Virus record (IMG/VR): IMGVR_UViG_2675903591_000001
Coordinates: 5,429-69,428 of that record
Reading direction: 5' to 3' (one strand)
DNA: 64,000 nucleotides
Origin: a virus
This document shows, piece after piece, positions 9,963 through 60,951 of the stretch. The notes beneath the pieces are model-generated. The model saw nothing but the letters and a program-made list of their open reading frames with translations, was not told the DNA's origin and made no database searches. Position numbers and translations under genes: made by a program. How positions within the stretch are numbered: position 1 is the first letter of the stretch; the number at the start of each line of letters is the position of its first letter.

Positions 9963-10402
9963 TCAACACCTGATCAGTTGAAAGCAAAACCTCAAAAATT
10001 TATAAGATAGGTATTTACCTACCTACTTATATCAATTATAGTCGCTTTCGTTTTCGGCGGTGAGCGATTATTTTTACTTTTAAAATAAATGCAAACGACA
10101 CTCAGTACCTGGCAGTAGCGTAATAGCCAAACACCAGCAGGGTCAGTCTCCAGCCCTGTTATCGAAATGGAGCAGACTGAGCGAGTCTGATTACGGAACG
10201 CAGGGACGGTGGCCACGGCCACCCGACCGATGGGGTAACGAGATGGGTGGGGGTAATTCCGACATGAACACCCGGGTTTTAAAGGCACTTCCGCCCATCT
10301 CGTTACGTCATTCCATATTACTTATGTCATTTATTCTTGGGTTGAATAATCGTAGACGTAGCCCGGCTGGCATGGTTAGCCAGCACAAATTCAGGGATCG
10401 AT

Positions 10403-12161: not shown

Positions 12162-12256
12162 GAATAATAGGTAGTGACCTACCAAACATTATTGGCTATT
12201 CTTGTCACGAATTTATTAGGCAATGGACGCCTACATACTCACGAAGGGAATCAAAA

Positions 12257-14675: not shown

Positions 14676-14800
14676 TAAATGGTTCCCTTTAGCTTGATTC
14701 CCTTCGGCAATTGTATCTCCAGCCCCCTTTAAAGTTAATCTATTAACTTCTACACAATCAGCCTGGATAAAATGTCAAAATTCAAGAAACGAGCCTTTTA

Positions 14801-14829: not shown

Positions 14830-14874
14830 TTGTAAAATCCGAGCTATGCTGACCCTAAAAAAGAGGTTTCGCAT

Positions 14875-16005
14875 ATGCGCAGTGATTTTGATCTGGCTAA
14901 GGCAGCAGAGAACTGTTCCGCAGAGACGATCGCGTTTTTGCAGACCGTCATCGAGTCGCCGCTTGACCAGCTGGAAGATTTCAGTGATTCCGACCCGGCA
15001 TTCAGGAAAGCATTCATGCTTTTCACTCGGCTATCTTTGTTAGTGACTCGCCGCCGACCCGAGCTTGGTGTCCACTGTATTTTGATACATGTTTTGCCTA
15101 AAATTGGCGATCTTCCTCTGTCCAAAATCACAAAAGTGGTCGTTAACCGGCTGACTAACCCGCTGATCATGGAAGGCAAAATTGTTCAGGGAAAACGTGT
15201 CTTTTCCATAATGAAGCAATTCCTAGCCTGGTGCGTGTTTCAGGGGTATCTAGAGAACTCACCAGTTGGCGACATTCCACTGAACAAAGTTGGTGGCTCA
15301 AACCCTAAGCCCAGGGAGCGCACTCTAACCGACGCTGAAATCTGGGTGTTCTGGCATGTATGGGATTACTTCGAAGTCTGCGAGGTGACGCGCTGGGCTG
15401 CCAGATTGACGCTTGCTGCTGCTCGACGCCCTGACGAGATACTACGTGCAAAATCCGCTGAGTTTGACCTCACCAATAACATATGGAACCAGGGTCGTCG
15501 CAACAAGTCGAATCGAGACCACCGGTTGCCCATCAGCCCGATTATGAAACTCTGTATCGAACGGCTGCTTGCCGCTGGCGAGGGGAGCGAATGGCTATGC
15601 CCATCTAATAAGAAAGCGGGCCGACCGATGTCTAAGGTGGCCATCAGCCAATCTCTACGCCGAATCCTTGAAACACCTGAAATGCTTGCGCTTGAGCCTT
15701 TCACTCCGCGTGACCTCCGCAGGACTGCAAGAAGCTGCCTGGCAAGCTTGGATGTACCGAGTGACGTATCAAGAAAGGTTTTAAATCAAAGCCTTGAAGG
15801 CATAGATCGTGTATACGATAGGCACGACTATATAGATCAAATGCAAGAAGCACTGTACAAATACTCAGTATTTTTGTTTAATATAGTCGAAAGCGAGGGG
15901 GTGGAGGATTTGAGCCACAAATACAAAGGCGACCGCCTGGATCTCTCAAACAGTCGCCTTGGGCTTGGTGTCGTTAATTTTCGATTGCGGCAAGTATCTT
16001 CTTGA
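14875..16005 (+). CDS. int: tyrosine recombinase / integrase
   Basis: C-terminal catalytic signature FTPRDLRRTA ... H ... VYDRHDY (R-H-R-Y) and an Arg-rich core. Confidence 0.8.
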   Translation: MRSDFDLAKAAENCSAETIAFLQTVIESPLDQLEDFSDSDPAFRKAFMLFTRLSLLVTRRRPELGVHCILIHVLPKIGDLPLSKITKVVVNRLTNPLIMEGKIVQGKRVFSIMKQFLAWCVFQGYLENSPVGDIPLNKVGGSNPKPRERTLTDAEIWVFWHVWDYFEVCEVTRWAARLTLAAARRPDEILRAKSAEFDLTNNIWNQGRRNKSNRDHRLPISPIMKLCIERLLAAGEGSEWLCPSNKKAGRPMSKVAISQSLRRILETPEMLALEPFTPRDLRRTARSCLASLDVPSDVSRKVLNQSLEGIDRVYDRHDYIDQMQEALYKYSVFLFNIVESEGVEDLSHKYKGDRLDLSNSRLGLGVVNFRLRQVSS

Positions 16006-16354
16006 GCTTTTCATCTGAAAGAGTGCCGGATGCTTTTGTTTTGTCTCTTAAGGCATTGATTATCTGGCGCTCTTCGTCACTTAGACCAGGGAGGTTTTTC
16101 TTTATGAATTGGTGGATGACCGGGTATCGTTCTTCCAGCACCAGCATCATAAAGCGGGTCTCATCTGTGCTAAGAGCTTCAGCGAGAAGGGATACTTTTT
16201 CCAATGGCATCGGCAGTCGGCCGGTTTTGATATTGGAAAGGTTGTTTGCGTTTTCGTAGCCAATCTCAGATGCGATCTGAGTCTGGGACTTTGGGGAGGT
16301 CAAAATTAGCCCCTCAATAAACGCTGAAATGCGGTTACCTTTTTTAGCGACCAT
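15974..16354 (-). CDS. XRE-family HTH transcriptional regulator (CI/Cro-like)
   Basis: helix-turn-helix KSQTQIASEIGYENANNLSNIKTGR; divergent from a 250-bp AT-rich control region. Confidence 0.7.
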   Translation of the reverse strand: MVAKKGNRISAFIEGLILTSPKSQTQIASEIGYENANNLSNIKTGRLPMPLEKVSLLAEALSTDETRFMMLVLEERYPVIHQFIKKNLPGLSDEERQIINALRDKTKASGTLSDEKLKKILAAIEN

Positions 16355-16609
16355 AATATATTTTTTTCCTGCTTACTTATGCGAAATAATTCTTAATAGA
16401 GAGGTGTCATTTGCACCATTGCCCTGAGTGTATTACCGGCTAGAAAGTAAGTAAAGGGTTATCCCTGCATAACGATAAGTAACCCACTAACTATTCAGAA
16501 TACGCCCATATCTCAAGGCGTAATGAGAATTGTTTTTGATATAAAACCTTTGATTTTTGTTACATACCGTATAAGATGCCGCCTCATTAAATAAGAACTG
16601 TCTCAAAGG

Positions 16610-16828: not shown

Positions 16829-16960
16829 TTCTCTTTAGCCTTTCTTAAAATCCAAACCTTGTTACTAGCCTGCGCGTTAATGGTCTCATTCATTGCGCGC
16901 AATGTTATTATCACCACTCAGAAAACAAATTGTTTTCATAAACAAGAAATGGAAAAGCAC

Positions 16961-19243
16961 ATGAAAAACAAACAAAAAATTAGAAAAGAGGTTCAGATAT
17001 TTCGCGAAAGTGTTCGCAAGGTTGTTGTCATGCTCTCCGGTAAAGACATTCCTGTGGCAGAACGTGGAAGCCGCGCATACGTCGAATACAACAAAGATGG
17101 GACGCCTTGCATGGTGAACCTACCTTCTCTGCCAGATGATGCCACTGATGGCCTCATGAACGCGATCCGTGGCTTCCTTGACCATGAAGTCGCCCACCTC
17201 CTTTTCACCGACTCGAAGCTAGCATTTAAGCTACTCGAAAAGAAAGACAGCCCAGCTTTTCACCTCTGGAACGCTGTTGAAGACACCTTCATTGAACGAC
17301 GCATGGGTGAGGTTTTTTCTGGCTCTAAACGCAACCTTGTCAACACGCAACGGCATGTAATTGAAAAACTTTTCGTTCCGAAAGTGGATGATGCACTAAA
17401 GGCTTTATCACGTAACCCGCGGGATCTCTTTCTAAAGTTCCTGTTAATGCCAGCTTTACGTGCCTGGGCGGGACAAACGCCTTTTATTGAGTTCATGGAG
17501 CCGTATTGGGCTTATGTTCGCGATCCTGTATCAAAACTAAGTAAAGGTGGTGTGCCGGCTGCTGTGCCAATGTTGATGAGCACCGAAGATTGCATCAAGC
17601 TGGCAGGCCGCATTTCACTGGCTTTAAAGGAAGAAATGGAGAAACCAGAAGGTGAATCTGGACATGGTGATTCGGAGGAAAATGATTCGCCTGATCATGT
17701 AGGTAGTGAACAACCTACTAAATCAAATGATGAATCTGTTAGTGATAAGCCTGGCAGTGATGATGAGACGCAGGAAGAAGAAGAGCCTGCTCCTGTAAAT
17801 AATAGTAATGAAGATAATATAAAAGATAAGGAAGAAGGCTCTGAATCAGATACTGACTCCAGCAACGCTAATGACTCCCAGCCTAAAGATGGTGACGCTC
17901 ACGAGGATGACGCCCCAGCTACATCAGGTGATGGTGATGGTAAACCAGAAGGTGAAGAGGAATCTGATCAGTCTGAAGGGTTTGGTGGATTTGAGGGCGA
18001 GTCGGACGACAATGAACCATATAATGAGCAGCCTGAAAGTGGTTCGGGCGGTGCAGACGATACTGATTCAGCGGCCAACTCAAATGACCAACAAAGCACA
18101 CCAGGTGATCTAGAAAGTGATGGTCGTCAGGAAGCCACCCAGGGCGATCTAAACGAAGAAGATGGCGGTACTGGTGAAATTCCATTGGACGCAGCGTTTA
18201 AGGCGCTGGAAGGCACTGAGGTGGCTCCAGAGCAAGGTATGGAGGAAGCGCTCAACGAGGTAATGGCCAACGAGCTGAAAGGTGTGCCAAAAGGCTCATA
18301 TCGCCCATATCAACGCTCCTACGACTTTATTGGCCCGATTGATGAAGTTGAGAACCATCTCCGCAAAACTCATAAAGCTTTTGGCCGCATCCATCTTAAC
18401 CGTGTTTTAAAGAACTGGCGTATCGACGACGAAGGCACCAGTTTATTTGCCTCGAATGTCGAGCGTCGTCTCGCTGATGGATCGGCTTCAACACTGGCTA
18501 AAGACCTTGAACGTGCCATTGCGAGCCGTAACAAAGTCCAGTTCGTACCTGGTCAACGTCGTGGAAAAGTGCATAGCGCTAATTTGTACCGACTGTCTAT
18601 GAACGATGACCGCGTATTCCGTCGCAAGGAAGACCATAAGGCAGTAAACGCTTGTGTGCAGCAGGTTATCGACTTGTCTGGCTCGATGCAGGGTTCGAAA
18701 ATTTGTCTCGCACTGGCCTGCGCCTACACAATTTCTGACGCGCTCGATCGCATAAATGTTCCGAACATCATTACCGGGTTTACAACTGCAGGCTGTGACA
18801 TCGATGCAGCAAGGAAGATGGGTCGCGGCTACAACCGCTATGAATCATTGATGCTCCCCACTATCAAGGGTTGGCACGAACGAGCAAACACGCCCACCAC
18901 ACGCAAACGCTTAGGCTGCTTGTCAGAGAGATTCCCCCTTGAAGACAACATTGATGGTGAATCAATTATGGCTTTAGCTCAGCACTTTGCTGGCCGCACT
19001 GAGGATAAGAAAATCATGCTTGTCATGAGTGACGGTGCACCAGCTGGAATCGGTCATGACTTCAGCGACCATCTTAAAGCTGTGGCTGAGTCAATAGAAG
19101 GCAGTGGTCTTATCGAACTAATGGGTATCGGCATTCTTACGGATGCTCCCAGCCGGTTCTACAAGAACCACGTCGAAGTTAAAAAAGTGGAAGACCTGGG
19201 CGCCACTGTCGTGAGGAAATTGTCTCAATTGATACTTGGCTAA
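16961..19243 (+). CDS. vWA-domain protein with a long acidic low-complexity linker (CobT-like)
   Basis: MIDAS motif VIDLSGSMQG; D/E/S-rich 250-aa segment; start taken at the GGAAAAGCACATG context, not the track's upstream Met. Confidence 0.75.
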   Translation: MKNKQKIRKEVQIFRESVRKVVVMLSGKDIPVAERGSRAYVEYNKDGTPCMVNLPSLPDDATDGLMNAIRGFLDHEVAHLLFTDSKLAFKLLEKKDSPAFHLWNAVEDTFIERRMGEVFSGSKRNLVNTQRHVIEKLFVPKVDDALKALSRNPRDLFLKFLLMPALRAWAGQTPFIEFMEPYWAYVRDPVSKLSKGGVPAAVPMLMSTEDCIKLAGRISLALKEEMEKPEGESGHGDSEENDSPDHVGSEQPTKSNDESVSDKPGSDDETQEEEEPAPVNNSNEDNIKDKEEGSESDTDSSNANDSQPKDGDAHEDDAPATSGDGDGKPEGEEESDQSEGFGGFEGESDDNEPYNEQPESGSGGADDTDSAANSNDQQSTPGDLESDGRQEATQGDLNEEDGGTGEIPLDAAFKALEGTEVAPEQGMEEALNEVMANELKGVPKGSYRPYQRSYDFIGPIDEVENHLRKTHKAFGRIHLNRVLKNWRIDDEGTSLFASNVERRLADGSASTLAKDLERAIASRNKVQFVPGQRRGKVHSANLYRLSMNDDRVFRRKEDHKAVNACVQQVIDLSGSMQGSKICLALACAYTISDALDRINVPNIITGFTTAGCDIDAARKMGRGYNRYESLMLPTIKGWHERANTPTTRKRLGCLSERFPLEDNIDGESIMALAQHFAGRTEDKKIMLVMSDGAPAGIGHDFSDHLKAVAESIEGSGLIELMGIGILTDAPSRFYKNHVEVKKVEDLGATVVRKLSQLILG

Positions 19244-19249: not shown

Positions 19250-19285
19250 CCGATAAAGATAAGTAGGCAGCTACTTATCTTTTTA
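19250..19285 (+). terminator. hairpin AAGATAAGTAGGC-AG-CTACTTATCTT followed by TTTT
   Basis: inverted repeat then a T-run after the vWA gene. Confidence 0.5.
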
Positions 19286-24592: not shown

Positions 24593-24969
24593 TGACTACC
24601 GAATTGGCACCGGCGATGATTGAGAAAGCGCGCGAAGCAATTACCCGCTCTAACTTCTGGGAGTTTATCGACCGCACTATGACACTTGAGCTGGCCGTGG
24701 CCAGCGCCAAATACGATGGCGAACGCGCCCCTAATCGTTTACGCAAGGCGGCCAAGGCAATGCTCAACGTCGTTTACGATCCTCTTATGCGTCGATTCGT
24801 TGACGGCATCAGTAGTTCGAGCAAAGCGCTGGAAAAGCTAGATGAGCTAAAGGCGTACCGCGACAGTCTGGTGACAAAGGTAGCCAATGAGTTTACTGAG
24901 GCCGAAAAGTTTGGCGACGTTGGCGAGTACCGCCGTCAAAGAGCTGCGAGAATGATGCAAGCAGCGTAA
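24592..24969 (+). CDS. hypothetical protein (125 aa)
   Basis: ATGA-coupled helical protein. Confidence 0.45.
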   Translation: MTTELAPAMIEKAREAITRSNFWEFIDRTMTLELAVASAKYDGERAPNRLRKAAKAMLNVVYDPLMRRFVDGISSSSKALEKLDELKAYRDSLVTKVANEFTEAEKFGDVGEYRRQRAARMMQAA

Positions 24970-24971
24970 GC

Positions 24972-24994
24972 AAAAGGCGCTATATAGCGCCTTT
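24972..24994. terminator. bidirectional terminator AAAAGGCGCTATATAGCGCCTTT
   Basis: perfect palindromic GC stem between the convergent 24592..24969 (+) and 24997..25797 (-) genes. Confidence 0.6.
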
Positions 24995-24996
24995 AA

Positions 24997-25797
24997 TTAT
25001 TTAACTCTTAGGAAAGTTGTGCTCAATACATTTTTATATCTATTCAAGTCGTTTTGTATTCCTGCTTCATTTACAATTAATCCTGCAGGGTCATATACAA
25101 GGCAAATCAAATGCCCACAATCTGGATGTTTCGTATACTTCATAATATCCTCTATTAACTGTTTTCCAATCTCTTTATCATTTAGACCCGCCCTCGTCAT
25201 TTTGCATTCGATTACGATTTTTTCTTTATGTAAAACAAAATCGATGCGGGCGTTCCGATTAAATGTTGAAGAAACAGCGTCCTCACATCTAATATCATCG
25301 AATTCAATTTTCAGAAGAGCATGGAGTAGGTCTTGCACATCATATTCATCATTCATCAACAATGGTGGTCTTGAAGCATATCTGATTTTCATAGCATCCA
25401 CGACCAGACCGAAACGCTCACATATATTTATGGCTTTTGATAGCGAGTCAACATTAGCAGACCCAAACAATTCGCCTCTATATTTTCTATAGTCAGATGT
25501 TATTTTATTAATTAACCCAACCGTATTTCTAATTATATCATCGCGAACAACTTTATAGTCTAGGTCTCTATCGTAAGATTTCATATCGGTTTTTTTAATG
25601 ACCGCCGAGATTTCCTTCCACTCACTAACAAAATCATGATTTGAAGGATATAAAGCCCTTATAGCTACCTCAATTTCATCAAAGGTCCTTTGGGTAACGC
25701 GGCTTCCAAAACAAATATCCTCTTTATTTTTAATGATAATTTTCCGCGAAATCAACTCATTTATTGCCCGCACTTTGGCGTCAGGATTCAGTTCCAT
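24997..25797 (-). CDS. putative effector of the cyclase operon: an uncharacterised N-terminal domain and a C-terminal PD-(D/E)xK nuclease-like domain
   Basis: C-terminal IDFVLHKEKIVIECK gives the D-(x11)-E-x-K catalytic pattern after an acidic helix; start set at MELNPD (ATG 25795..25797), which has a GAGGT SD. The track's longer ORF would read through the intergenic hairpin. Confidence 0.6.
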   Translation of the reverse strand: MELNPDAKVRAINELISRKIIIKNKEDICFGSRVTQRTFDEIEVAIRALYPSNHDFVSEWKEISAVIKKTDMKSYDRDLDYKVVRDDIIRNTVGLINKITSDYRKYRGELFGSANVDSLSKAINICERFGLVVDAMKIRYASRPPLLMNDEYDVQDLLHALLKIEFDDIRCEDAVSSTFNRNARIDFVLHKEKIVIECKMTRAGLNDKEIGKQLIEDIMKYTKHPDCGHLICLVYDPAGLIVNEAGIQNDLNRYKNVLSTTFLRVK

Positions 25798-25810
25798 TAT
25801 AACCTCTAAA

Positions 25811-25833
25811 AATAGGGGCTTCCGCCCCTTTTG
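25811..25833 (-). terminator. GGGGC-GGAA-GCCCC hairpin plus TATTTTT between the cyclase and effector genes (candidate attenuator or partial terminator)
   Basis: lies just after the cyclase TAA stop and just before the effector SD. Confidence 0.35.
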
Positions 25834-25834
25834 T

Positions 25835-26608
25835 TTATCCGACGTTGATCCGATAACCTTGAACGCCACCTCTGCCTATGTCACTTAATACAAATGACAA
25901 CCTGCCACCTTTTGAGGAAGGCCAAGCTGCTCTCAAATTGCTATCAATAAGAATAACATTGTTGCCACCTGAAAGTTTAGTTGCTCTGAACACGCATTCT
26001 CCATATGCTTTAGCATGTCTAGCTCCTTCAATTCCAGAAAGGCTTACCAGCGCCTTGCTAAGTGCCAATCCAATACCAATCTTCAAGGGCGGAAGGTCGT
26101 ATCTATTTGCTAAGGCGGTGTTTACGATATCTAAAGTATTATTTAAGCAATCTTTAGCCGCATTGTGAGCATCGTAAATGTACTGTTCCGGTTTTTCTTC
26201 TTCTTTTTTGAAAAAACCAAGAACACCATCACCTAAATATTCAGTGACACCCCCTTTATATATATTTATTGTTTTCTCAAGAGCAGGCAAAAGAGCAGAG
26301 GTTTCATAAAACACACGCTGTATTCCCTCAAGCCTAATCGAATTACTGGCAGTAAGCATGTGATCTGTAGAATTGCGCATATCGGCAACAATAGCTATGA
26401 AATCGTCTACTATCGTCTCGCCTTCCATAACTATTTCATGCCCAGGTATTTGACTTGGGGCCGAGTCCATAGCACTCTTATTGAAGGCTTCGGTGCCGAC
26501 TCTACTCTCTGATATTAATTTATATCCACCATTACTCCAATGGTATTCAGCTTGATTAAGAGACCTATCAACTAAGTTAGCAATTATTGACCGCTGATCA
26601 TTATTCAT
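25835..26608 (-). CDS. class III nucleotidyl cyclase domain protein (Pycsar PycC-like or adenylate/guanylate cyclase-like), minimal size
   Basis: FIAIVADMRNST matches the F-A-D-I-x-G-F-T metal site; YLGDGVLGFF matches the I-G-D-A-Y-M second Asp motif; KIGIGLALSKALVSLSGIEGARHAKAYGECVFRATKL matches the RIGIH.G.V..G..G......Y...G..VN.ASR transition-state region; its ATG overlaps the upstream TGA (ATGA). Confidence 0.7.
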   Translation of the reverse strand: MNNDQRSIIANLVDRSLNQAEYHWSNGGYKLISESRVGTEAFNKSAMDSAPSQIPGHEIVMEGETIVDDFIAIVADMRNSTDHMLTASNSIRLEGIQRVFYETSALLPALEKTINIYKGGVTEYLGDGVLGFFKKEEEKPEQYIYDAHNAAKDCLNNTLDIVNTALANRYDLPPLKIGIGLALSKALVSLSGIEGARHAKAYGECVFRATKLSGGNNVILIDSNLRAAWPSSKGGRLSFVLSDIGRGGVQGYRINVG

Positions 26609-27174
26609 GCCTGAACTCCAAAATTGAAGTAATATACAGTAGATAGAAACATACCTAAAGTAAGCCATCCCAAAGTCAAGTTAGTGCATACATTGACCCG
26701 AAGATTTTTAACATTACGAATTAAAGATACTTTCATCTTTTCACTAGCTAGTTCTTCAAGTAATTTTTGTTCATCTTGAGGTATAGCTGATAGGTAAGTT
26801 TGAACATCTTGAGTTGCTCTAACATCACTGATGCTAAAGAAATCCTTCTTCCCTATGAGAGGCATGCCACCCATGTAAAAAGTATCAGCTGGAACTATGC
26901 CGATCATATGTTTTTTTATGTCAGTTATTGGCGACAAACTTTTGAACAAAACATATACCGAGGCAAGCCATAAGAATGCTGTAATTACTGAAACAAATCC
27001 CAAGTGGTAAGGAGAAGTCCAAAGCTTTGCCACTGCTTTGGAAAGGCCTTCAACTGAAGTCAAAGGAAGAAAGATAACGACAAACAAGAAGCCAATCTTG
27101 ACATCTGTTGCACGAATAGTGGCTTGGGTATCATTAATCGATTGATAAAGAAACTCTATTTGTTTTTCTTTCAT
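26605..27174 (-). CDS. 3-TM membrane protein, first gene of the cyclase operon
   Basis: hydrophobic helices IGFLFVVIFLPLTSV, LGFVSVITAFLWLASVYVLF and LTLGWLTLGMFLSTVYYF; stop overlaps the cyclase start; weak candidate promoter TTGTTA-N17-TCAATA upstream on the - strand, around 27200..27240. Confidence 0.6.
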   Translation of the reverse strand: MKEKQIEFLYQSINDTQATIRATDVKIGFLFVVIFLPLTSVEGLSKAVAKLWTSPYHLGFVSVITAFLWLASVYVLFKSLSPITDIKKHMIGIVPADTFYMGGMPLIGKKDFFSISDVRATQDVQTYLSAIPQDEQKLLEELASEKMKVSLIRNVKNLRVNVCTNLTLGWLTLGMFLSTVYYFNFGVQA

Positions 27175-27384
27175 TTTTTACTTAGCGCCATCCGCATTGA
27201 CAAGTTAGATTTATTGAGAAAAATCCCATAGATTTAACAACTTTTTCTGACCCTAGACAACACCTTATGTTTCGTCCCTGAAGTCAAAGCAACGCTGATC
27301 GGCTAATCTCCAATAAATTATTAAATTTTGTTCAATTCTGGTAAAGTTTTGAAACCAAAAATTAGCTAATGAGCTACATGAAAT

Positions 27385-27813: not shown

Positions 27814-27935
27814 CACCCTGTTTTTATATCTGGATTATAGCTAGTTAACTAGCTATTATGCGCTTGCTCGTTAGCGAGTCACGACTGCCCAAAGTGCAAT
27901 GCACCCTCGGCCAAAAACAATAATGGAGAAACACA

Positions 27936-31314: not shown

Positions 31315-31344
31315 CGAGGGGTGCTAACGCACCCCTTCTTTTTT
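31315..31344 (+). terminator. terminator GAGGGGTGC-TAAC-GCACCCCTTC plus T-run
   Basis: GC stem with TTTTTT. Confidence 0.65.
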
Positions 31345-31361
31345 GATTGCAATTAGGTAGG
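31344..31361. repeat. TAGGTAGG-TA-ACTACCTA palindrome family member
   Basis: one mismatch from perfect; 45 bp upstream of the 31407 gene. Confidence 0.55.
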
Positions 31362-31406
31362 TAACTACCTATTTTATATAAGCACTATAAAACATCGGAA
31401 AAACAC

Positions 31407-34593: not shown

Positions 34594-34653
34594 TCGCCTA
34601 TTTAAGTCAGATATAATTAAGTAACCAACAACTTATAATAAGGGTATAAACAC

Positions 34654-34923: not shown

Positions 34924-35124
34924 CGCTTTCCTTACATTTCGAAAATAGGTTACTATCTACCTATCTTATGGAGTTCGCATGACAGTAGCTTTGCAATTAA
35001 CCTCTCTCCTTCTGGTAGTTTTATGCCGTCAGATGAAGAAAGCCTTCGAGCCAATGCCCGGGCGCGTTTATTACGCCTTCATGCTCAGCACCGCATTATT
35101 CATGTTCCTGTCGCCGGTGCTGAA

Positions 35125-38387: not shown

Positions 38388-38607
38388 TTTGATCCCTATT
38401 ATGCTGTGTAAAACATCATCTTAGAGTCCCTTTGCTATGGAGTTAAGGAAATTAATATTTGTCCCTTTAGATGATAGGTAGTTAGCTACTTATAAATATT
38501 GCATAATAGCTAGCCTGCGAACCAACCCAATAGCCTGTAGCTCTGAATTGATGGCCTATTCAGTGTTGGTAACATTGCGTTGAATTTATAACAAGCTGGA
38601 AGAACAC

Positions 38608-39926: not shown

Positions 39927-41839
39927 AATTTTTGTCAATGAAGGTTGAGAACTTCATGGCGCTGGCCGAAGCGGAAGTTGAACTCTCCGACCGCGGGCTG
40001 GTGCTGATCCAGGGTATCAACACTGACGACTCATCAGCTTCCAGCAATGGCGCTGGCAAGTCCACCCTCATGAACAGCTTAATGTGGTGCATCTATGGCG
40101 AAACTGCCCACGGTGTGAAGGGTGACGATGTTCTGTCAACGGGGAACGAGAAGAACTGTCGCGTTCAAGTGACCATAGAGGACGAAGGCAAAAAGTTCGC
40201 GATCATCCGTCACCGCAACCACAAAGAGTTTAAAAACCGTCTGATTGTTCGTGGTGAAGATGGCGACATGACTAAAGGCAAAGACACGCTTACGCAGGAG
40301 CTTGTCGAACGGCTGATTGGTGCATCGAAGGAAGTGTTCACCGCATCGATTTATGCAAGCCAAGAGGCTATGCCAGACCTGCCGGGCATGACTGACAAGA
40401 ACCTTAAAGCGATAGTGGAAGAAGCTGCTGGCGTTGACCGTTTGACCCGGGCGTATTCAATTGCTCGCGAACGAGCAAATGCAGCTGCCGCGCGGGTAGA
40501 TAACGTTAAGACCAAGATGGAAGGCACTCTGTCGCTGGTGGACTCAGCTGAAACAGAGCTGAAGTCTGCAAAGGCATCCTCAGAAGAGTGGGAAAAGAGC
40601 CGCAGCCAGCGTTTGGAAAAGTCCCGCGAAGATCTGACCGGCGCTGAAGTTGAGCTGGCAGAGGCGGAGCTGGAGCTGCGAACCATTCCAGAACAGATCC
40701 GCGATAAGCAGAACGCCATTACCGCAGAGCGTGAAAAACTGGCAACTAAAGATGAACACGACAAAAAGCTGGTTCGTGTCCGGGCTGTTATTTCCGAAGC
40801 GGAAGGCAACATCCGTTCCGCAGAGACGTTAAAAGCGTCAGCGGTTAAACGTGCCCACAATAACAAAGCGCAGGCTGATGCCATTGATTCCAAGGTTGGC
40901 ACTCCGTGCCCAACATGCGGAAAGGCTTATTGCAGCGAAGATTTATCAACCGTTAAGGAGAACTATATTGGCCAGGCACGCAGTGAAATTGCAGAAGCGC
41001 AGGCATCAGCAGCGACAGTGGCTGAACAGCAAGGCCGTCTTGATAAAGCGCGCGGCATCGAGCGAGCACTTATCGACGCAACACCAGACGTCTCAGCCAT
41101 CGTTGCCCGAATCCAGCAGCTGAATGGTGAGCTAAGCACCTTAAACAAGCGCTCCGGTGAGCTGGGTTTGCTTGAGACCACCTTCCGCCGCGCTAAGGCT
41201 GAAGTGGATCGTGTCATGGCAGAAGTGAATCCGTTTCTGGCGAGCATTACGCGCCATGAAGAGAGCCTGCGCGCCAATAAATCTAAATACGCAGAACTTA
41301 AAACAGAACTTAAAAACCATCAGGATCAGGCTCAGCTGCTTGAGAAAGCGCGACAGGTATATTCCCCAGCCGGTGTCCGTTCGCACATTCTCAGCTCAGT
41401 GACGCCGTTCCTGAACATGCGTACCGCCGAATATCTCAACACTCTGTCTGACGGCAATATCGTTGCTGAATGGTCAACTATGGAGACCACTAAGAAAGGT
41501 GAGATCCGCGACAAATTCAACATCAATGTGTCGAAAGCAGGTTCCAGCAAATCATTCATGGGTTTATCCGGTGGTGAGAAACGAAAGGTGCGAATTTCTT
41601 GCTCACTGGCATTGCAGGATCTGGTGGCCAGCCGCGCCAGCAAAAACATCCAGCTGTTTATCGGTGATGAAATTGACGATGCGCTGGACTCAGCAGGGCT
41701 TGAGCGCTTGATGGGCATCCTTGAAACCAAGGCGCGCGAGCGTGGCACCGTGATGATCATCAGTCACAAAGAAATGAAATCATGGTTCCGCGAAACTATC
41801 ACCGTTGAAGTGAAGGATGGCCGCAGTTATGTCAGTTAA
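39923..41839 (+). CDS. sbcC: SbcC/Rad50-family ATPase
   Basis: Walker A NGAGKSTL; long coiled coils; zinc-hook CPTCGKAYC; ABC signature LSGGEKRKV; Walker B FIGDEIDDALD. Confidence 0.8.
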   Translation: MKFLSMKVENFMALAEAEVELSDRGLVLIQGINTDDSSASSNGAGKSTLMNSLMWCIYGETAHGVKGDDVLSTGNEKNCRVQVTIEDEGKKFAIIRHRNHKEFKNRLIVRGEDGDMTKGKDTLTQELVERLIGASKEVFTASIYASQEAMPDLPGMTDKNLKAIVEEAAGVDRLTRAYSIARERANAAAARVDNVKTKMEGTLSLVDSAETELKSAKASSEEWEKSRSQRLEKSREDLTGAEVELAEAELELRTIPEQIRDKQNAITAEREKLATKDEHDKKLVRVRAVISEAEGNIRSAETLKASAVKRAHNNKAQADAIDSKVGTPCPTCGKAYCSEDLSTVKENYIGQARSEIAEAQASAATVAEQQGRLDKARGIERALIDATPDVSAIVARIQQLNGELSTLNKRSGELGLLETTFRRAKAEVDRVMAEVNPFLASITRHEESLRANKSKYAELKTELKNHQDQAQLLEKARQVYSPAGVRSHILSSVTPFLNMRTAEYLNTLSDGNIVAEWSTMETTKKGEIRDKFNINVSKAGSSKSFMGLSGGEKRKVRISCSLALQDLVASRASKNIQLFIGDEIDDALDSAGLERLMGILETKARERGTVMIISHKEMKSWFRETITVEVKDGRSYVS

Positions 41840-42545
41840 TGAGCTGAGTTACATCCAGTTCCGGCAAGTGGTTTCTGTACTGGCATCCATTAACCTCCTG
41901 TCGGATTACGTGGACGAGCCGGTACGGCCTAAGTGGTACTTTGAGCTAAGCGAGGTAGATGACGCGCAGCGCGCCGCGTTAACGGAGTTGCTTGACGCCA
42001 GCCCGGTCATGACGACGCTGACGCATGAAAGCAACACAAAGCCGCTTATGATCAACTTAGCAGATCCGAGCGGCTATCTGCCTCGCGAGTGCGGTCTGGT
42101 CACTCTGAGTGACGTAAACACGTTGACCATGAGTATTGGCGACCCGTCACTGTATCTGGATAGCCAGCAAATCAGCGCGTTCAACACTTTTATCCGCCGT
42201 CTAAAAAACAAATCGGAGCTGGTGGCCAGCGGTGGCACTGCATTCGAAAGCGTTGCTATCAAATTCGAAGAAGGTGATGACCTCATCCGAAACACTATTG
42301 TTGAGTTTAAGGATGGCAAAGGTGAGACCATTTTTGTCGCTGACGGCGATACACATGAAAATGTTAAGCACAATCTGCCGAAGAACTACTTAAGTGAATT
42401 GTGTGAGTTCGTTGCGCAAACAATGATGACCTCAGAGGATGATGATTCATTGTTCAATGAGCTGCTGGGCGTACCATCAAGAAGCCAGCAAAAAGAAGAA
42501 CCGGTTAAAACGCAGGAAGCCCACCCTCAGTGGGGAACATGGTAA
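41817..42545 (+). CDS. hypothetical protein (242 aa)
   Basis: ORF. Confidence 0.5.
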   Translation: MAAVMSVNELSYIQFRQVVSVLASINLLSDYVDEPVRPKWYFELSEVDDAQRAALTELLDASPVMTTLTHESNTKPLMINLADPSGYLPRECGLVTLSDVNTLTMSIGDPSLYLDSQQISAFNTFIRRLKNKSELVASGGTAFESVAIKFEEGDDLIRNTIVEFKDGKGETIFVADGDTHENVKHNLPKNYLSELCEFVAQTMMTSEDDDSLFNELLGVPSRSQQKEEPVKTQEAHPQWGTW

Positions 42546-42554
42546 GGAGACCAT

Positions 42555-43124
42555 ATGAGTAAGTTGATTAAAATCGTCGGGTTAGACCCCAGCATGAGTA
42601 ACTTTGGTATCGCTGCCGGCACACTCGATCTGGACACCAATGAAGTTAAGGTCACGCGCTTTGAGCTGGCTGAAACGAAGGCCGGTGGCAAGAAGAAAAC
42701 GGTTCGCGTGAACAGCGACGATCTGCGCCGCGCTGGTGAGATTTGGGCGAAAGCAAAGCCAATGATTGATGAGGCACATATCGTTTTTGCTGAGCTGCCG
42801 GTGGGTAGCCAATCGTCTCGTGCTCAAACCAGCTATGGCATTTGCATCGGCGTTCTGGCAAGCATTCAAAAGGCGTTAATTCAGATCACCCCTGACGAAA
42901 TCAAGAAGTATGTCGGCGGTAAAGCGAGTGTTGCCAAAGAGGACATCATTGAGTGGGCTATTCAGGAGCAACCAGACGCCCCCTGGCTGCGTCACAAGTC
43001 CAAAGGTGAAATGGTGCTGACCGGCAAGAATGAGCATCTTGCTGACGCTGTAGCGGCGATTTACGTCGGTTTAGATACTGATCAATTCAAGCAGGTGGTA
43101 AGCGTACTGAAAGCAATTTTATGA
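42555..43124 (+). CDS. RuvC-family Holliday junction resolvase-like nuclease
   Basis: N-terminal IVGLDPSMSNFGIA (catalytic Asp), FAELPV (Glu) and HLADAVAAIYVGL (Asp) arranged in the RuvC-like RNase H fold order. Confidence 0.6.
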   Translation: MSKLIKIVGLDPSMSNFGIAAGTLDLDTNEVKVTRFELAETKAGGKKKTVRVNSDDLRRAGEIWAKAKPMIDEAHIVFAELPVGSQSSRAQTSYGICIGVLASIQKALIQITPDEIKKYVGGKASVAKEDIIEWAIQEQPDAPWLRHKSKGEMVLTGKNEHLADAVAAIYVGLDTDQFKQVVSVLKAIL

Positions 43125-43135: not shown

Positions 43136-43153
43136 TAGGTAGTCAACTACCTA
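43136..43153. repeat. TAGGTAGT-CA-ACTACCTA palindrome family member upstream of nrdA
   Basis: perfect 8-bp arms. Confidence 0.6.
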
Positions 43154-43201
43154 CTATCATGACGGCCACTATATGTAGTGGCCTTTTTATTGGGAAAACA
43201 C

Positions 43202-47800: not shown

Positions 47801-47886
47801 GCTTTTAAGTTATAGGGTTGCTTTGATGGCGCTCTTTTTTTACTTATTATAAGATAGGTATTCACCTACCTATCAAAGAAACCAAG

Positions 47887-53537: not shown

Positions 53538-53559
53538 TGTAGGTAGTTAACTACCTACA
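53538..53559. repeat. 22-bp perfect palindrome TGTAGGTAGTTAACTACCTACA, archetype of the TAGGTAGT-NN-ACTACCTA family
   Basis: perfect dyad directly abutting the GAGGA SD of the methyltransferase gene. Confidence 0.6.
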
Positions 53560-55794: not shown

Positions 55795-55967
55795 GGGGGT
55801 TTTTAAACAATCATTTAATAAGTAGTTGACTACCTACATACAAAATATTAAATTAACCGCGTCAGGACGACGACGGCGCTGGTTTAGCGCTTGCTCCATG
55901 GACGGAGCACAAACACGGCTGGGTTCGCCCAGCCGTAACTCTTTGTGTCTCAAGAAGGGATTCGTTT

Positions 55968-58979: not shown

Positions 58980-59709
58980 GACCACCAGCACACTCGATCG
59001 CCAGGCGTTGATGGAGACGTTTCTAAAGGGTGTGCCAACCGAAGAGCTTCTCAACCACGATATTAACAGTTGGTATGCGCACAAAGCGCAAGAGCAAGCC
59101 GAGGAAATGCGCGATGAAATGGACTCACCCGCTGGTGGACTTTTGAAATTCCTAAGTAGTGGGCCGATGTCAGGTATGGCAGCAATGATGTTCGCCAGGG
59201 AGTTTAAGGACACACCGGCCAAAAACTATTATGAGCTGGTATATCAATTGCCTGAAATGGGGGCTTTCACGGTCACTATCCAGCGTAATGATGGAGAGAC
59301 GCCAGCTCTTCAACTGGCCGCAGCCAAAGACCGTATTGCCATGCTCGAAGAATCACACGCTCAGGTGATTCAGGCGCGTGATTTGTACAAGCAGAGCTGG
59401 CAGCTGTCATCTCTACAATCCATGTCACGATCATTCCGCGAGGCAGTGAGAGCGGCGCGCAAGGTGTGGCTCGATGAGAATGACCCAAAGGACGGCACTG
59501 ACTGCGTCACACCATTCGACCAGTTCCTATACACGGAAGTTATTTCTGGCGAGGGTGTCGATTTGCCAGACCTCTTCGAGCTGATGGAGTGGGCGAAATA
59601 CCCAGCCGATGGGCGCGATCTCAACTCAGTGGCTAAGGGCAAGATGTCACGTCTTATTCTGGCCGCGACCGGTTTGGGGGATGCGTCACTTACAGTAAGC
59701 GATCGGTAA
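58960..59709 (+). CDS. hypothetical protein (249 aa)
   Basis: ORF. Confidence 0.45.
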   Translation: MNKMQHETTSTLDRQALMETFLKGVPTEELLNHDINSWYAHKAQEQAEEMRDEMDSPAGGLLKFLSSGPMSGMAAMMFAREFKDTPAKNYYELVYQLPEMGAFTVTIQRNDGETPALQLAAAKDRIAMLEESHAQVIQARDLYKQSWQLSSLQSMSRSFREAVRAARKVWLDENDPKDGTDCVTPFDQFLYTEVISGEGVDLPDLFELMEWAKYPADGRDLNSVAKGKMSRLILAATGLGDASLTVSDR

Positions 59710-60951
59710 TTCCTTCAGACATGTGGTGTAGCGCGGGGAAAGCATCTCGCGCTTCATCTGCCATTGGTTATCAACCCCCTGCCCTGCGAACCAAACCTTC
59801 CCCAACCCTGTTTTATTAATCTTGTCGATGACACCCATTAGCTCATCTGCTTTGGCTCGCGGCTGGTGCTCGCTGAACATATCCAATTGAGCGACACCGC
59901 CCTGGAAGAAGTCACCGAGCATGATACCCGCGCGCGCGTAACGATAGCCATCACGCCATATCCTTTTCAGACACTGCATGGCAAACGCTACAATGTCACG
60001 CGTGTCGGCAGTCGAGTACTCGCAGGTGATCGAAGAGCTGTTGCCATATTGAGGCTCATTGGCGTAGCGGCTCGTTGCAATGAAAACAGTAATAAGCCGG
60101 CAACGTGATTTTTGTTCTCTCAATTTCTCTGAGGCACGAACGGCATAAGTGCAAACGGCATGTTCCATGTCTTCCAGGCGCTCAACGCGCTGCCCAAAGG
60201 ATTTGGAGGTGACGATCTGCTGCTTTGGTGGCGGCTGCTCTTCAAGTGGGATGCACGATTCACCATTCAGCTCACGGACGGTGCGCTCAAGCACTACACC
60301 GAAATGTTTGCGGATCATCGTCGTGTTGGCCTGTGCCAGCTGTAGCGCCGTTTCAATGCCCATCTGGTTGAGCCTCTTAGTTAATCGGCTCCCAACACCC
60401 CAGACATCACTTACATCGACGAGAGCCATCAGTTTGCGCTGTCGCACCGGGCTGGATAAGTCCAGCACCCCGTTTGTTTTTGACCATTTTTTGGCAGCGT
60501 GATTTGCCAGCTTTGCCAAAGTTTTACTTTGCGCAAACCCCACACCTACGGTTAGAAACGTTTCTTTTTTGATGCGATCTCGAAGCTGATGCCCAAAATC
60601 TTCAAGAGGTATACAACTGGAAATGCCTGTTACATCGAGAAAACTTTCGTCAATGCTGTAAATTTCTTGGCCTGGCGCCATCTCACCCATGATGGTCATC
60701 ATTCGTCGGCTCATGTCGGCATACAGAGCATAATTGCTGGAAAAGACCACTACGCCCTTCTCTTCAAAGAAACGCTCGTTTTTGAACAGTGGATCACCCA
60801 TTTTTATGCCAAATTTCTTGGCTTCAGCTGACCGTGCCACGATGCAGCCATCGTTGTTAGAACAGACCACAACTGGCTTCCCGCGCAAGTCAGGTCGAAA
60901 AATGGTCTCACATGAAGCGTAGAACGAATTTGCATCAACAAGGGCAAACAT
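59686..60951 (-). CDS. umuC: Y-family translesion DNA polymerase, UmuC-like
   Basis: N-terminal MFALVDANSFYASCE and the conserved Y-family palm and fingers. Confidence 0.85.
   Translation of the reverse strand: MFALVDANSFYASCETIFRPDLRGKPVVVCSNNDGCIVARSAEAKKFGIKMGDPLFKNERFFEEKGVVVFSSNYALYADMSRRMMTIMGEMAPGQEIYSIDESFLDVTGISSCIPLEDFGHQLRDRIKKETFLTVGVGFAQSKTLAKLANHAAKKWSKTNGVLDLSSPVRQRKLMALVDVSDVWGVGSRLTKRLNQMGIETALQLAQANTTMIRKHFGVVLERTVRELNGESCIPLEEQPPPKQQIVTSKSFGQRVERLEDMEHAVCTYAVRASEKLREQKSRCRLITVFIATSRYANEPQYGNSSSITCEYSTADTRDIVAFAMQCLKRIWRDGYRYARAGIMLGDFFQGGVAQLDMFSEHQPRAKADELMGVIDKINKTGLGKVWFAGQGVDNQWQMKREMLSPRYTTCLKELPIAYCK

What the first reader, a model, noticed from the sequence alone, without database searches (positions are those of the whole stretch)
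53538..53559. Recurrent intergenic palindrome family TAGGTAGT-NN-ACTACCTA, at least 12 copies in front of separate transcription units
The archetype is the perfect 22-bp dyad TGTAGGTAGTTAACTACCTACA at 53538. Variants are at 5587 (TAAGTAGCTAACTACCAA), 10002-10030, 12168-12183, 19258-19279, 27838-27857 (ATAGCTAGTTAACTAGCTAT, a perfect 20-mer), 31344-31361, 34945-34964, 38476-38493, 43136-43153, 47853-47874 and 55819-55836. Each lies 10-60 bp upstream of the RBS of a gene or operon: the 5640 gene, the 12257 gene, cobS-like, ssb, the SPFH operon, sbcD, nrdA, thyA, dam and others. Several abut the SD directly. This is too frequent and too position-specific to be chance. Possible explanations: an operator for one element-encoded regulator, which could be the XRE/CI-like protein at 15974 or an unknown one; a phage-specific promoter element; or, on the mRNA, 9-bp hairpins acting as RNase III processing or stability elements, as at T7 intergenic sites.
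Basis: seen in the sequence. Interest (0 to 1): 0.6.

Follow-up and report, generated by a model that had tools for sequence, protein, structure and literature searches.

The report
Dispersed repressor operators of a phage-plasmid
The repeated palindrome is real and is most likely the binding site of the element's own helix-turn-helix repressor, copied in front of some 15 gene blocks of an SSU5-like phage-plasmid so that one protein can keep the virus silent while it lives as a plasmid.

Summary
TAGGTAGT-NN-ACTACCTA occurs 11 times at up to 3 mismatches (0.05 expected). The looser core TARGTA-N6-TACYTA occurs 16 times (0.18 expected). Twelve of 14 curated sites are intergenic in a window with 89% ORF coverage. 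The window is an SSU5-like phage-plasmid, 94% identical to a Cronobacter plasmid. Relatives (SSU5, Cyrano, Klebsiella plasmids, an Acinetobacter plasmid; one matching site in Yersinia pMT1) carry the same 18-bp frame at the same gene junctions, but the sequence changes by lineage, giving at least five types. That argues for an element-encoded factor rather than a host factor. Mismatches show no G-U bias (83 versus 80), and hairpin energies range from -2 to -12.5 kcal/mol, so an RNA hairpin is unlikely. The FljA-like "transcriptional regulator" models as tandem Hfq/Sm domains, so I rejected it as the binder. The XRE-like gene at 15974-16354 has a lambda-cI/434-type HTH fold and occurs in about 880 related plasmids. 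Its recognition helix changes with motif type, motif-like sites lie at its own promoter, and its Cyrano homologue is expressed in lysogens while site-flanked genes are silent. Best reading: dispersed operators of an immunity repressor, analogous to P1 C1. Binding itself is untested.

The parts
53538..53559 (.). Archetype operator, perfect 22-bp dyad TGTAGGTAGTTAACTACCTACA, 12 nt before the dam-like methylase start (53570)
   Evidence: orthologous sites in SSU5 77652, Cyrano 77437, pKSB1_9A_3 93108, L012 307
2108..2125 (.). Weak site TAACTAACCAGCTACCTA, directly before the ORF at 2128
   Evidence: orthologous sites in SSU5 33601, Cronobacter 6243, Cyrano 31297
5585..5602 (.). Site TAAGTAGCTAACTACCAA, 10 nt after the primase stop and 37 nt before the 5640 gene
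   Evidence: orthologues in SSU5 38179 and Cyrano 34731
10008..10025 (.). Site TAGGTATTTACCTACCTA, before an ORF-poor stretch; relatives carry tRNA genes there
   Evidence: orthologues in SSU5 41774, Cyrano 38253, pKSB1_9A_3 47589
12168..12185 (.). Site TAGGTAGTGACCTACCAA, 71 nt before the Tad2-like gene (12257)
15974..16354 (-). XRE-like HTH protein (126 aa), the proposed cognate repressor. It is the homologue of Cyrano CYRAN_45 'putative repressor' and lies next to a tyrosine recombinase (14875-16005)
   Evidence: The AF2 N-domain matches C-proteins, lambda cI and the 434 repressor. Homologues occur in 881 plasmid records. The recognition helix co-varies with motif type. The Cyrano homologue is expressed in the lysogen
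16355..16609 (.). Divergent control region between the XRE gene and a 72-aa ORF. It holds the motif-like site 16476-16493 (TAAGTAACCCACTAACTA) and half-sites at 16374 and 16448
   Evidence: the site is conserved in all A-type genomes while its flanks vary; B-type genomes have GGTAAGNNCTTACC right after a TTTACA-16-TAATAT promoter
17700..17717 (.). Intragenic site TAGGTAGTGAACAACCTA inside cobT
   Evidence: the same place in cobT carries the local motif type in SSU5 (43662), pMT1 and Salmonella
19260..19277 (.). Site TAAGTAGGCAGCTACTTA between cobT and cobS
27838..27855 (.). Site TAGCTAGTTAACTAGCTA, 43 nt before the gp32-like ssb gene
   Evidence: a sigma-70-like -10 ends at 27838
31354..31371 (.). 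Site TAGGTAGGTAACTACCTA, after a terminator and 35 nt before the membrane-protein/SPFH operon
   Evidence: orthologue in SSU5 55696
34618..34635 (.). Weak site TAAGTAACCAACAACTTA, 18 nt before the ORF at 34654
   Evidence: also in Cronobacter 38136
34946..34963 (.). Site TAGGTTACTATCTACCTA, 59 nt before the ORF at 35023
38475..38492 (.). Site TAGGTAGTTAGCTACTTA, 115 nt before sbcD
   Evidence: orthologues in SSU5 63081, Cyrano 63200, pKSB1_9A_3 78250
43136..43153 (.). Site TAGGTAGTCAACTACCTA in the spacer of a TTGATA-17-TATCAT promoter-like match before nrdA
   Evidence: orthologues in SSU5 67776, Cyrano 67884, pKSB1_9A_3 82647, L014 1497
47855..47872 (.). Site TAGGTATTCACCTACCTA, 14 nt before thyA and just downstream of a TTGATG-16-TATTAT match
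   Evidence: orthologues in SSU5 72512 and pKSB1_9A_3 87800
55819..55836 (.). Site TAAGTAGTTGACTACCTA, after the RNase H gene and its terminator
   Evidence: orthologues in SSU5 79905, Cyrano 79652, L012 2560

Best explanation
The palindromes are DNA operators for a dimeric, element-encoded helix-turn-helix regulator. The most likely regulator is the XRE-like protein encoded at 15974-16354 on the minus strand.

The window is part of an SSU5-like phage-plasmid. While the element lives as a plasmid, the protein is made from its own promoter. It occupies about 15 sites in this window and 20-25 in a whole genome. These sites lie at, or just downstream of, the promoters of replication, recombination, nucleotide-metabolism, methylase, lysis and virion gene blocks. 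Occupancy blocks RNA polymerase and keeps lytic genes off.

Related elements carry the same site architecture with a different half-site sequence and a correspondingly different recognition helix. That would define separate immunity groups.

Shown here:
- The sites are real, intergenic and positionally conserved, and their type is lineage-specific.
- They behave as a conserved DNA sequence, not as a conserved RNA structure.
- The candidate protein has an HTH fold.
- Its helix co-varies with the motif.
- Motif-like sites lie next to its own gene.

Inferred:
- That this protein binds the sites.
- That binding represses rather than activates.
For: 1. Non-random and intergenic: 11 hits against 0.05 expected, 16 against 0.18, and 12 of 14 intergenic at 89% ORF coverage.

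2. Identity of the element: the window is an SSU5-like phage-plasmid.

3. Positional conservation with type switching: the same 18-bp frame lies at orthologous junctions (before nrdA, thyA, dam and sbcD, after RNase H, over the terminase stop, inside cobT) in SSU5, Cyrano and pKSB1_9A_3, with other junctions matched in the Klebsiella/E. coli loci and LR890700; the sequence type differs by lineage:
- A: TAGGTAGT..ACTACCTA
- B: TARGTAAGTACTTACYTA
- C: TAAGTAAR..TTTACTTA
- D: TATGTAW..WTACATA
A syntenic Acinetobacter element has CAGTCAGTACTGACTG. Type switching among elements that share hosts points to an element-encoded binder.

4. DNA rather than RNA: among 107 distinct sites, non-Watson-Crick position pairs are 83 G-U-compatible on the sense strand against 80 A-C. 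Hairpin energies range from -2.1 to -12.5 kcal/mol with shifting registers.

5. Candidate protein:
- The AF2 N-terminal domain (pLDDT 71-87) matches C.BclI, C.AhdI, lambda cI and the 434 repressor, with target TM 0.7-0.8.
- Homologues occur in 881 plasmid records.
- Identity between motif types is only 42-50%, while TerL is 87-90%.
- Recognition-helix variants track the motif..LSNIKTG goes with G7 (8 loci)..LSLIKSG with A7 (42 loci), NVNTLSIIKAG with T3 (2 loci), and ISLIKSG with type C (2 loci).

6. Operators at its own gene: TTTACA-16-TAATAT is followed immediately by GGTAAGNNCTTACC in B-type genomes. There are two sites 35 bp apart in pKSB1_9A_3, two in Acinetobacter, and a conserved site in all A-type genomes.

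7. Expression in the Cyrano lysogen: the homologue CYRAN_45 reads 96 normalised counts, while genes just downstream of sites read 5-12 (PMC9928086 S1 table).

8. Precedent: P1 C1 binds 22 dispersed operators (PMC8546580).
Against: - There are no binding data of any kind.
- The helix-motif co-variation rests on about five lineages and is confounded with phylogeny. I found no recombinant that separates the XRE type from the backbone.
- In A-type genomes, including this window, the site next to the XRE gene is degenerate (TAAGTAACCCACTAACTA, 3 mismatches to the A consensus) and does not cover the predicted +1 as it does in B-type genomes.
- SSU5 itself has no XRE homologue in the 100 kb fetched (of 103 kb) yet keeps about 25 sites. 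This fits a repressor-less lytic derivative, but I could not verify that.
- Sigma-70-like matches are not enriched overall, and their register relative to the motif varies (spacer, +1, or -35).
- Copies between the capsid gene stop and its terminator, and inside cobT, are odd places for promoter operators.
- The XRE model is only moderately confident (mean pLDDT 67), and Pfam HTH hits are below threshold.
- Most Cyrano genes are silent in the lysogen anyway, so the expression argument is weak.
Confidence: 0.55

Rival explanations
1. The sites are DNA operators, but for a different element-encoded protein. That protein could be an unrecognised regulator or an activator needed to switch on lytic transcription. 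In this reading the XRE protein controls only its own local switch.
For: - The type switching and DNA-level conservation require an element-encoded binder but do not say which one.
- The site at the XRE gene in A-type genomes is a poor match to the A consensus.
- SSU5 keeps its sites without the XRE gene, as expected if the binder is essential for lytic growth.
- The nearest structural neighbours, C-proteins and lambda cI, can activate as well as repress.
Against: - The other annotated candidates fail. The FljA-like protein has an Sm/Hfq fold and varies 71-100% within A-type genomes without any motif change.
- The 101-aa neighbour gene is absent from pKSB1_9A_3.
- The ParB-like proteins diverge no more than the backbone.
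- SSU5_054, SSU5_055 and SSU5_116 are absent from the Cronobacter plasmid.
- No fixed activator-type geometry is seen.
Confidence: 0.2
2. The motif is part of a special promoter class read by host RNA polymerase, alone or with a phage factor. For example, the centre or right end of the palindrome could supply -35-like or -10-like elements.
For: - Some sites fit a register of TTGAAA-a-motif-TATCAT, with the -10 starting at motif position 17.
- Others have a TTGACT/TTTACC-like centre followed by a -10 about 17 bp later (10014, 55826).
- The flank upstream of the motif is A-rich.
Against: - Flank information content is below 0.5 bit everywhere except A at -1.
- The register differs from site to site.
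- Two strong sites end 12-14 nt before the start codon (47855, 53540), so the transcript would start inside the gene if the motif supplied the -35.
- A palindrome whose two halves are equally conserved is not what an asymmetric promoter needs.
- Sigma-70-like matches are not above the shuffle expectation.
Confidence: 0.1
3. The motif acts on the mRNA as a hairpin: an RNase III or other processing site, a stability element, or the target of the FljA-like Sm-fold RNA-binding protein.
For: - Perfect copies can form 8-11-bp hairpins of -9 to -12.5 kcal/mol.
- Several copies abut ribosome-binding sites.
- The element encodes an FljA-family protein with an Hfq-like fold, and FljA regulators act on mRNA (PMC2652032).
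Against: - There is no excess of G-U over A-C at mismatched positions (83 against 80).
- The sequence is conserved, not just the pairing.
- Four sites fold at -2 to -6 kcal/mol or in other registers.
- Sm/Hfq proteins bind single-stranded RNA, not duplex stems (established knowledge, not tested here).
- Rfam gives no hit.
Confidence: 0.07
4. The sites serve DNA transactions other than transcription, for example parS-like loading sites for the two ParB-like proteins, or replication or packaging signals.
For: - They are 16-18-bp palindromes, as parS sites are.
- One copy lies in the 64-bp gap directly upstream of the first ParB-like gene (Cronobacter 79198).
Against: - Twenty or more copies sit precisely at gene junctions across 100 kb. 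That is unlike plasmid centromeres, which are clustered (established knowledge).
- The ParB-like proteins are 65-78% identical across motif types, no more divergent than the backbone.
Confidence: 0.05

Closest known systems
Phage-plasmid P1: C1 immunity repressor with 22 operators dispersed over the genome (PMC8546580)
   Same: It is a plasmid prophage of about 100 kb. One repressor acts through many operators scattered in front of lytic functions, including its own gene. Immunity depends on occupancy of all of them.
   Different: The P1 operator is an asymmetric 17-mer (ATTGCTCTAATAAATTT). Here the site is an 18-22-bp palindrome. C1 is not an XRE-type protein. P1 late operons are driven through the activator Lpa, whereas here the same motif also occurs inside the virion and lysis gene region of relatives.
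Lambdoid cI/Cro, 434 and P22 c2 HTH repressors with palindromic operators and heteroimmunity
   Same: The five-helix XRE/cI-type HTH fold is shared. Both use palindromic operators of 14-18 bp, place an operator over the repressor's own promoter, and change specificity between close relatives through the recognition helix. The variable residue is position 6 of the helix (N41), the place of Gln33 in the 434 repressor; that correspondence is from my memory, not tested.
   Different: Lambdoid operators are clustered in two control regions rather than 15-25 dispersed copies. The protein here has no S24 self-cleavage domain and instead carries a short helical C-terminus.
Restriction-modification controller (C) proteins and their C-boxes
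   Same: They are the closest solved structures (C.BclI, C.AhdI, C.Esp1396I). They are small XRE-type dimers that bind palindromes overlapping promoter elements.
   Different: C-proteins regulate only their own operon. No restriction-modification link exists here, and the sites are genome-wide.
T7 intergenic RNase III sites
   Same: Both are hairpin-capable sequences between genes of long co-directional transcription units.
   Different: T7 sites are long, irregular RNA structures conserved as structure. Here sequence is conserved and pairing is not.

Membership tests
XRE / lambda-cI-type HTH repressor with its operators | Protein has the five-helix XRE-type helix-turn-helix DNA-binding domain | tested here: met
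   In the AF2 model, residues 8-76 form five helices. Foldseek gives probability 1.00 and target TM 0.7-0.8 to C.BclI, C.AhdI, lambda cI, the 434 repressor and DdrO. Pfam HTH_19/HTH_3 hits of homologues are only sub-threshold, and the window protein has none.
XRE / lambda-cI-type HTH repressor with its operators | Operator is a two-fold symmetric site of about 14-20 bp | tested here: met
   The site is an 18-bp palindrome extending to 22 bp. Both halves are equally conserved.
XRE / lambda-cI-type HTH repressor with its operators | Operator(s) at the repressor's own promoter | tested here: inconclusive
   This is clear in B-type genomes, where the palindrome follows directly after TTTACA-16-TAATAT, and in types C and Acinetobacter. 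In this window only a degenerate site (16476) and half-sites are present.
XRE / lambda-cI-type HTH repressor with its operators | The protein binds the sites specifically | not testable with these tools
   This needs EMSA, footprinting or ChIP. Only co-variation of helix and motif is available.
LexA / lambda-cI self-cleaving repressors | C-terminal S24 peptidase domain for RecA-stimulated cleavage | tested here: not met
   No Peptidase_S24 hit at E up to 5. The C-terminal 50 residues model as helices.
P1 C1-type dispersed immunity operators | Many operators of one repressor dispersed over a plasmid-prophage genome | tested here: met
   There are about 15 sites in 64 kb here, and roughly 20-26 candidate sites (some overlapping or weak, 2-4 expected by chance) in the Cronobacter, SSU5, Cyrano and pKSB1_9A_3 genomes.
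P1 C1-type dispersed immunity operators | Asymmetric 17-bp operator ATTGCTCTAATAAATTT and a C1-family protein | tested here: not met
   The motif is palindromic and unrelated in sequence. The candidate protein has the XRE fold.
T7-type RNase III processing hairpins | RNA secondary structure conserved through compensatory or wobble changes | tested here: not met
   83 G-U against 80 A-C among non-Watson-Crick position pairs in 107 sites. Folding energies run from -2.1 to -12.5 kcal/mol with changing registers.
Activator-dependent promoters (P1 Lpa late promoters, T4 MotA boxes) | Motif at a fixed distance from a conserved -10 element | tested here: not met
   Over 83 non-redundant sites, no flank position downstream of the motif exceeds about 0.35 bit.

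The most novel reading that the evidence does not exclude
The whole SSU5 super-group of phage-plasmids runs on a shared regulatory architecture that has not been described. The group includes Yersinia pestis pMT1, Salmonella Typhi pHCM2-like, Klebsiella pKpn/pCAV and Acinetobacter AB-group elements.

The architecture would have three layers:
- A fast-evolving XRE repressor with 20 or more dispersed palindromic operators, whose sequence defines at least five immunity groups.
- A second palindrome that does not vary between the enterobacterial elements examined (AAACAA-N-TTGTTT), placed in front of partition and replication genes.
- A tandem-Sm, FljA-like RNA-binding regulator.

In this reading the Salmonella flagellar phase-variation repressor FljA is a domesticated phage-plasmid protein.
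Probability: 0.3. Interest if true: 0.6.

Novelty: new member of a known kind. Interest (0 to 1): 0.45.

Why it matters
SSU5-like phage-plasmids are common in Klebsiella, E. coli, Salmonella, Enterobacter and Yersinia. About 830-880 plasmid records hold the marker genes. They include pMT1 of Y. pestis and pHCM2-type plasmids, and they can carry resistance genes.

The papers I could search and open describe no lysis-lysogeny control for them.

A defined operator family with a named candidate repressor would give four things:
- A regulon map.
- A simple sequence marker for immunity groups, which predicts which elements can coexist or superinfect.
- Handles for inducing or curing these plasmids.
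- Orthogonal repressor-operator pairs for engineering.

It also shows that the P1 strategy of one repressor with many scattered operators arose independently with a different protein fold.

Tried and rejected
1. FljA-like protein as the binder. It is Pfam Flag1_repress at E 1e-61 and lies outside the window. I first favoured it because it is annotated 'transcriptional regulator' and differs between motif types. I rejected it for three reasons:
- The AF2 model is two Sm/Hfq-like domains with no HTH.
- It varies 71-100% among genomes that all have the A-type motif.
- It is only 34% identical between types B and C, whose motifs are nearly the same.

2. I first dismissed the XRE protein because SSU5 lacks it. 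I reversed that after finding it in 881 plasmid records and in Cyrano.

3. A separating co-variation test over 127 IMG/VR loci. The XRE group, the FljA group and the backbone clade are fully confounded, so no informative recombinants turned up.

4. A search for fixed promoter geometry over 83 non-redundant sites and with the sigma-70/terminator scanner. The result was heterogeneous and not above the shuffle expectation.

5. Searches that found nothing:
- Megablast of 8 kb against the phage collection.
- tRNA scan.
- Rfam.
- PDB sequence searches.

6. Literature. I found no paper linking SSU5 with FljA, palindromes or operators. One search was wasted on a loose query. The D6/SSU5 comparative paper, the P1 genome paper and the SSU5 announcement are not held. 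The 2026 bioRxiv preprint on phage-plasmid heteroresistance could not be opened.

7. Other candidates:
- ParB-like proteins and the 101-aa neighbour gene show backbone-like divergence or are absent from pKSB1_9A_3.
- A host factor is unlikely because the motif type differs between elements that share hosts.

Full report
OBSERVATION

The 22-bp dyad TGTAGGTAGTTAACTACCTACA is at 53538-53559 exactly as reported.
- TAGGTAGTNNACTACCTA at up to 3 mismatches occurs 11 times, against 0.05 expected from dinucleotide-preserving shuffles.
- The looser core TARGTA-N6-TACYTA at up to 1 mismatch occurs 16 times, against 0.18 expected.
31344 should be 31354. Those at 5587, 27838 and 38476 are 1-2 bp off.
- With a simple greedy ORF call, 89% of the window is coding, yet 12 of 14 curated sites are intergenic (P about 2e-10).
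- Sites lie 6-163 nt after the upstream gene and 12-131 nt before the next start codon.

WHAT THE ELEMENT IS

The window encodes DnaB, primase, ligase, CobT/CobS-like proteins, a PolIII alpha subunit, gp32-like SSB, SbcCD, NrdAB, ThyA and a Dam-like methylase.
- Its PolIII alpha is 81% identical to that of Salmonella phage SSU5 and E. coli phage-plasmids.
- The DNA is 94% identical to a 109-kb plasmid of Cronobacter sp. JZ38.
- It is therefore part of an SSU5-like phage-plasmid.

CONSERVATION IN RELATIVES

The full Cronobacter plasmid has about 20 copies of the same motif. Some are in the virion gene region: over the terminase stop codon, in the portal gene, between the capsid gene stop and its terminator, and before the tail fibre gene.

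SSU5 has almost no exact match. It does carry about 25 copies of a variant in the same 18-bp frame, TARGTAAGTACTTACYTA, at the same gene junctions: before the orthologues of the 5640 gene, cobS, ssb, the SPFH operon, sbcD, nrdA, thyA and dam, after RNase H, and inside cobT.

The variants fall into types:
- Type A (this window and the Cronobacter-like clade): TAGGTAGT..ACTACCTA.
- Type B: E. coli Cyrano, Shigella/E. coli and Klebsiella pKpn-type plasmids. pMT1 of Y. pestis has one matching site inside cobT plus an AGTAAGCACTTACC palindrome at its XRE promoter.
- Type C (TAAGTAAR..TTTACTTA): Klebsiella pKSB1_9A_3 and K. oxytoca pCAV1752-111.
- Type D (TATGTAW....WTACATA): plasmid LR890700 and one IMG/VR contig.
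- A syntenic Acinetobacter baumannii plasmid has its own family, CAGTCAGTACTGACTG, with 9 sites in 27.7 kb against 1.2 expected.

The site inside cobT changes type along with the rest of each genome. That shows selection for the local motif rather than for the protein sequence.

Elements with different types live in the same host genera. The binder is therefore encoded by the element, not by the host.

DNA OR RNA

Evidence against a conserved mRNA hairpin:
- In 107 distinct site sequences from 12 genomes or loci, non-Watson-Crick position pairs are 83 G-U-compatible on the sense strand, 80 A-C (G-U only on the antisense strand) and 111 other. A conserved mRNA hairpin would favour G-U strongly.
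- Each half-site independently takes A or G at position 3.
- Predicted hairpins in the window range from -2.1 to -12.5 kcal/mol. Several use other registers.
- Rfam finds nothing.

The conserved feature is the sequence of both halves. That is what a symmetric DNA-binding dimer requires.

RELATION TO PROMOTERS

Over 83 non-redundant sites, the palindrome extends weakly to 22 bp: A at -1 is 0.71 and T at +18 is 0.46. The upstream flank is A-rich, and there is a T-rich tract at -19 to -13. No flank position reaches 0.8 bit, and there is no fixed -10 or -35.

Individual sites fit different registers:
- In the spacer of TTGATA-17-TATCAT before nrdA.
- Immediately downstream of a -10 match at 27838 and 47855.
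- With a TTGACT or TTTACC-like centre at 55826 and 10014.

Two strong sites end only 12-14 nt before the start codon. Variable placement over core promoter elements is typical of repressor operators and not of activator sites. However, sigma-70-like matches are not enriched overall, so the promoter assignments remain inference.

WHO BINDS

I first suspected a conserved 'transcriptional regulator' outside the window. It is a full-length member of the FljA family (Pfam PF03614, E 1e-61), and FljA regulators block fliC mRNA translation (PMC2652032). I rejected it for these reasons:
- It varies 71-100% among genomes that all have the A-type motif.
- It is only 34% identical between types B and C, whose motifs are almost the same.

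- Its N-terminal 75 residues model as the five-helix XRE/cI domain. The closest solved structures are C.BclI, C.AhdI, lambda cI and the 434 repressor.
- Homologues occur in 881 plasmid records, always beside a tyrosine recombinase and cobT. This holds even in Acinetobacter.
- It is only 42-50% identical between motif types, while terminase is 87-90%. That is the pattern expected of an immunity determinant.

Its predicted recognition helix (residues 36-44) changes with the motif:

| Helix | Motif feature | Loci |
|---|---|---|
| ANNLSNIKT | G at motif position 7 | 8 |
| ANNLSLIKS | A at position 7 | 42 |
| ANNISLIKS | type C | 2 |
| VNTLSIIKA | T at position 3 | 2 |
| PNVLSMIKS | Acinetobacter motif | 1 (read by eye) |

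The residue that distinguishes A from B and C is the sixth of the helix. From my memory of the 434 repressor-operator structure, that residue contacts the inner operator base pairs. I did not test this here.

Motif-like sites lie next to the gene:
- In B-type genomes a strong TTTACA-16-TAATAT promoter is followed immediately by GGTAAGNNCTTACC.
- pKSB1_9A_3 has two sites 35 bp apart.
- The Acinetobacter plasmid has two.
- All A-type genomes keep TAGTTAGTGRGTTACTTA while the flanks drift.

Published RNA-seq of the Cyrano lysogen supports the same picture. The homologue CYRAN_45, annotated 'putative repressor', reads 96 normalised counts. Genes just downstream of sites read 5-12: portal 9.8, tail fibre 9.6, holin 8.6, sbcD 7.5, nrdA 7.6, dam 6.0. 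One exception, CYRAN_34, reads 43.7 (PMC9928086). Cyrano is induced 39-fold by ciprofloxacin.

SSU5 lacks the XRE-recombinase module but keeps the sites. This is consistent with a repressor-less lytic derivative, which I could not verify.

WEAKNESSES

- Nothing here shows binding.
- The co-variation rests on about five lineages and is confounded with phylogeny. A scan of 127 IMG/VR loci produced no informative recombinant.
- The site at the XRE gene in this window is degenerate.
- The XRE model is of moderate confidence, and Pfam HTH hits are sub-threshold.
- Copies between the capsid stop and its terminator, and inside cobT, are not obviously at promoters.

COMPARISON AND NOVELTY

Functionally, the closest known system is phage-plasmid P1. 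Its C1 repressor binds 22 dispersed operators (PMC8546580). P1 differs in that its operator is asymmetric and the protein is unrelated.

Structurally, the system resembles lambdoid, 434-type HTH repressors with palindromic operators and heteroimmunity. It differs in having operators dispersed genome-wide and no S24 cleavage domain.

I found no description of this motif or of SSU5-group lysogeny control in the searchable literature.

I rate it a new member of a known kind: solid as an observation, plausible but unproven in mechanism, and of moderate interest.

Noticed in passing
window 125, 2894, 16923, 32495, 49859, 62059, 62110 (exact); 46827, 57037, 57754 (1 mismatch): A second intergenic palindrome family, AAACAA-N-TTGTTT, often preceded by cATAAGA. 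It gives 10 hits at up to 1 mismatch against 0.32 expected. Eight of the ten copies lie 11-37 nt before the starts of the parA-like, dnaB, cobT, AAA-ATPase, TerB-like and DUF4942 genes. Unlike the first motif, its sequence is the same in all enterobacterial loci examined, which suggests a second, invariant regulator.
   Followed up: partly
[not shown]
   Followed up: partly
L158 (Acinetobacter baumannii pLUH6011-1, NZ_CP031384 1-27714): A distantly related, syntenic phage-plasmid (HTH regulator, cobT-like, cobS-like, dnaE) has its own intergenic palindrome family, CAGTCAGTACTGACTG. There are 9 sites against 1.2 expected, two of them upstream of its XRE gene. It also encodes a 179-aa protein annotated 'Hfq'.
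   Followed up: partly
window 43164-43190: A GC-rich hairpin plus T-run (GGCCACTATATGTAGTGGCC TTTTT) lies between the motif/promoter-like region and the nrdA start. It is conserved in SSU5, Cyrano, pKSB1_9A_3 and a Klebsiella plasmid. It may be an attenuator or a 5' stabilising stem. A similar pairing of motif then terminator follows the capsid gene in relatives.
   Followed up: no
window 24900-27300 (minus strand) and 12257-12745: A low-GC block (0.41-0.44) holds a DpnII/MboI-type restriction endonuclease gene (24997-25869) and two unannotated minus-strand ORFs. It looks like an inserted defence island. A Tad2-like (anti-Thoeris) gene lies at 12257-12745, preceded by a motif copy.
   Followed up: no
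SSU5 (NC_018843) 41776-42761 versus window 12800-16860: SSU5, the type phage of the group, lacks the recombinase and XRE-repressor module found in about 880 related plasmids but keeps about 25 operator-like sites. It may be a repressor-less lytic derivative.
   Followed up: partly
window 10026-10740: About 700 bp downstream of the 10008 site has no convincing ORF, no tRNA (ARAGORN) and no Rfam hit. SSU5 and Cyrano carry tRNA genes at this position. It may be a non-coding transcript or a decayed tRNA region.
   Followed up: partly
window 59686-60951 (minus strand): A umuC-type translesion polymerase gene. Together with the UmuD/LexA-like S24 peptidase gene annotated in Cyrano, it is a possible link between the SOS response and induction, since the XRE protein itself has no cleavage domain.
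   Followed up: no
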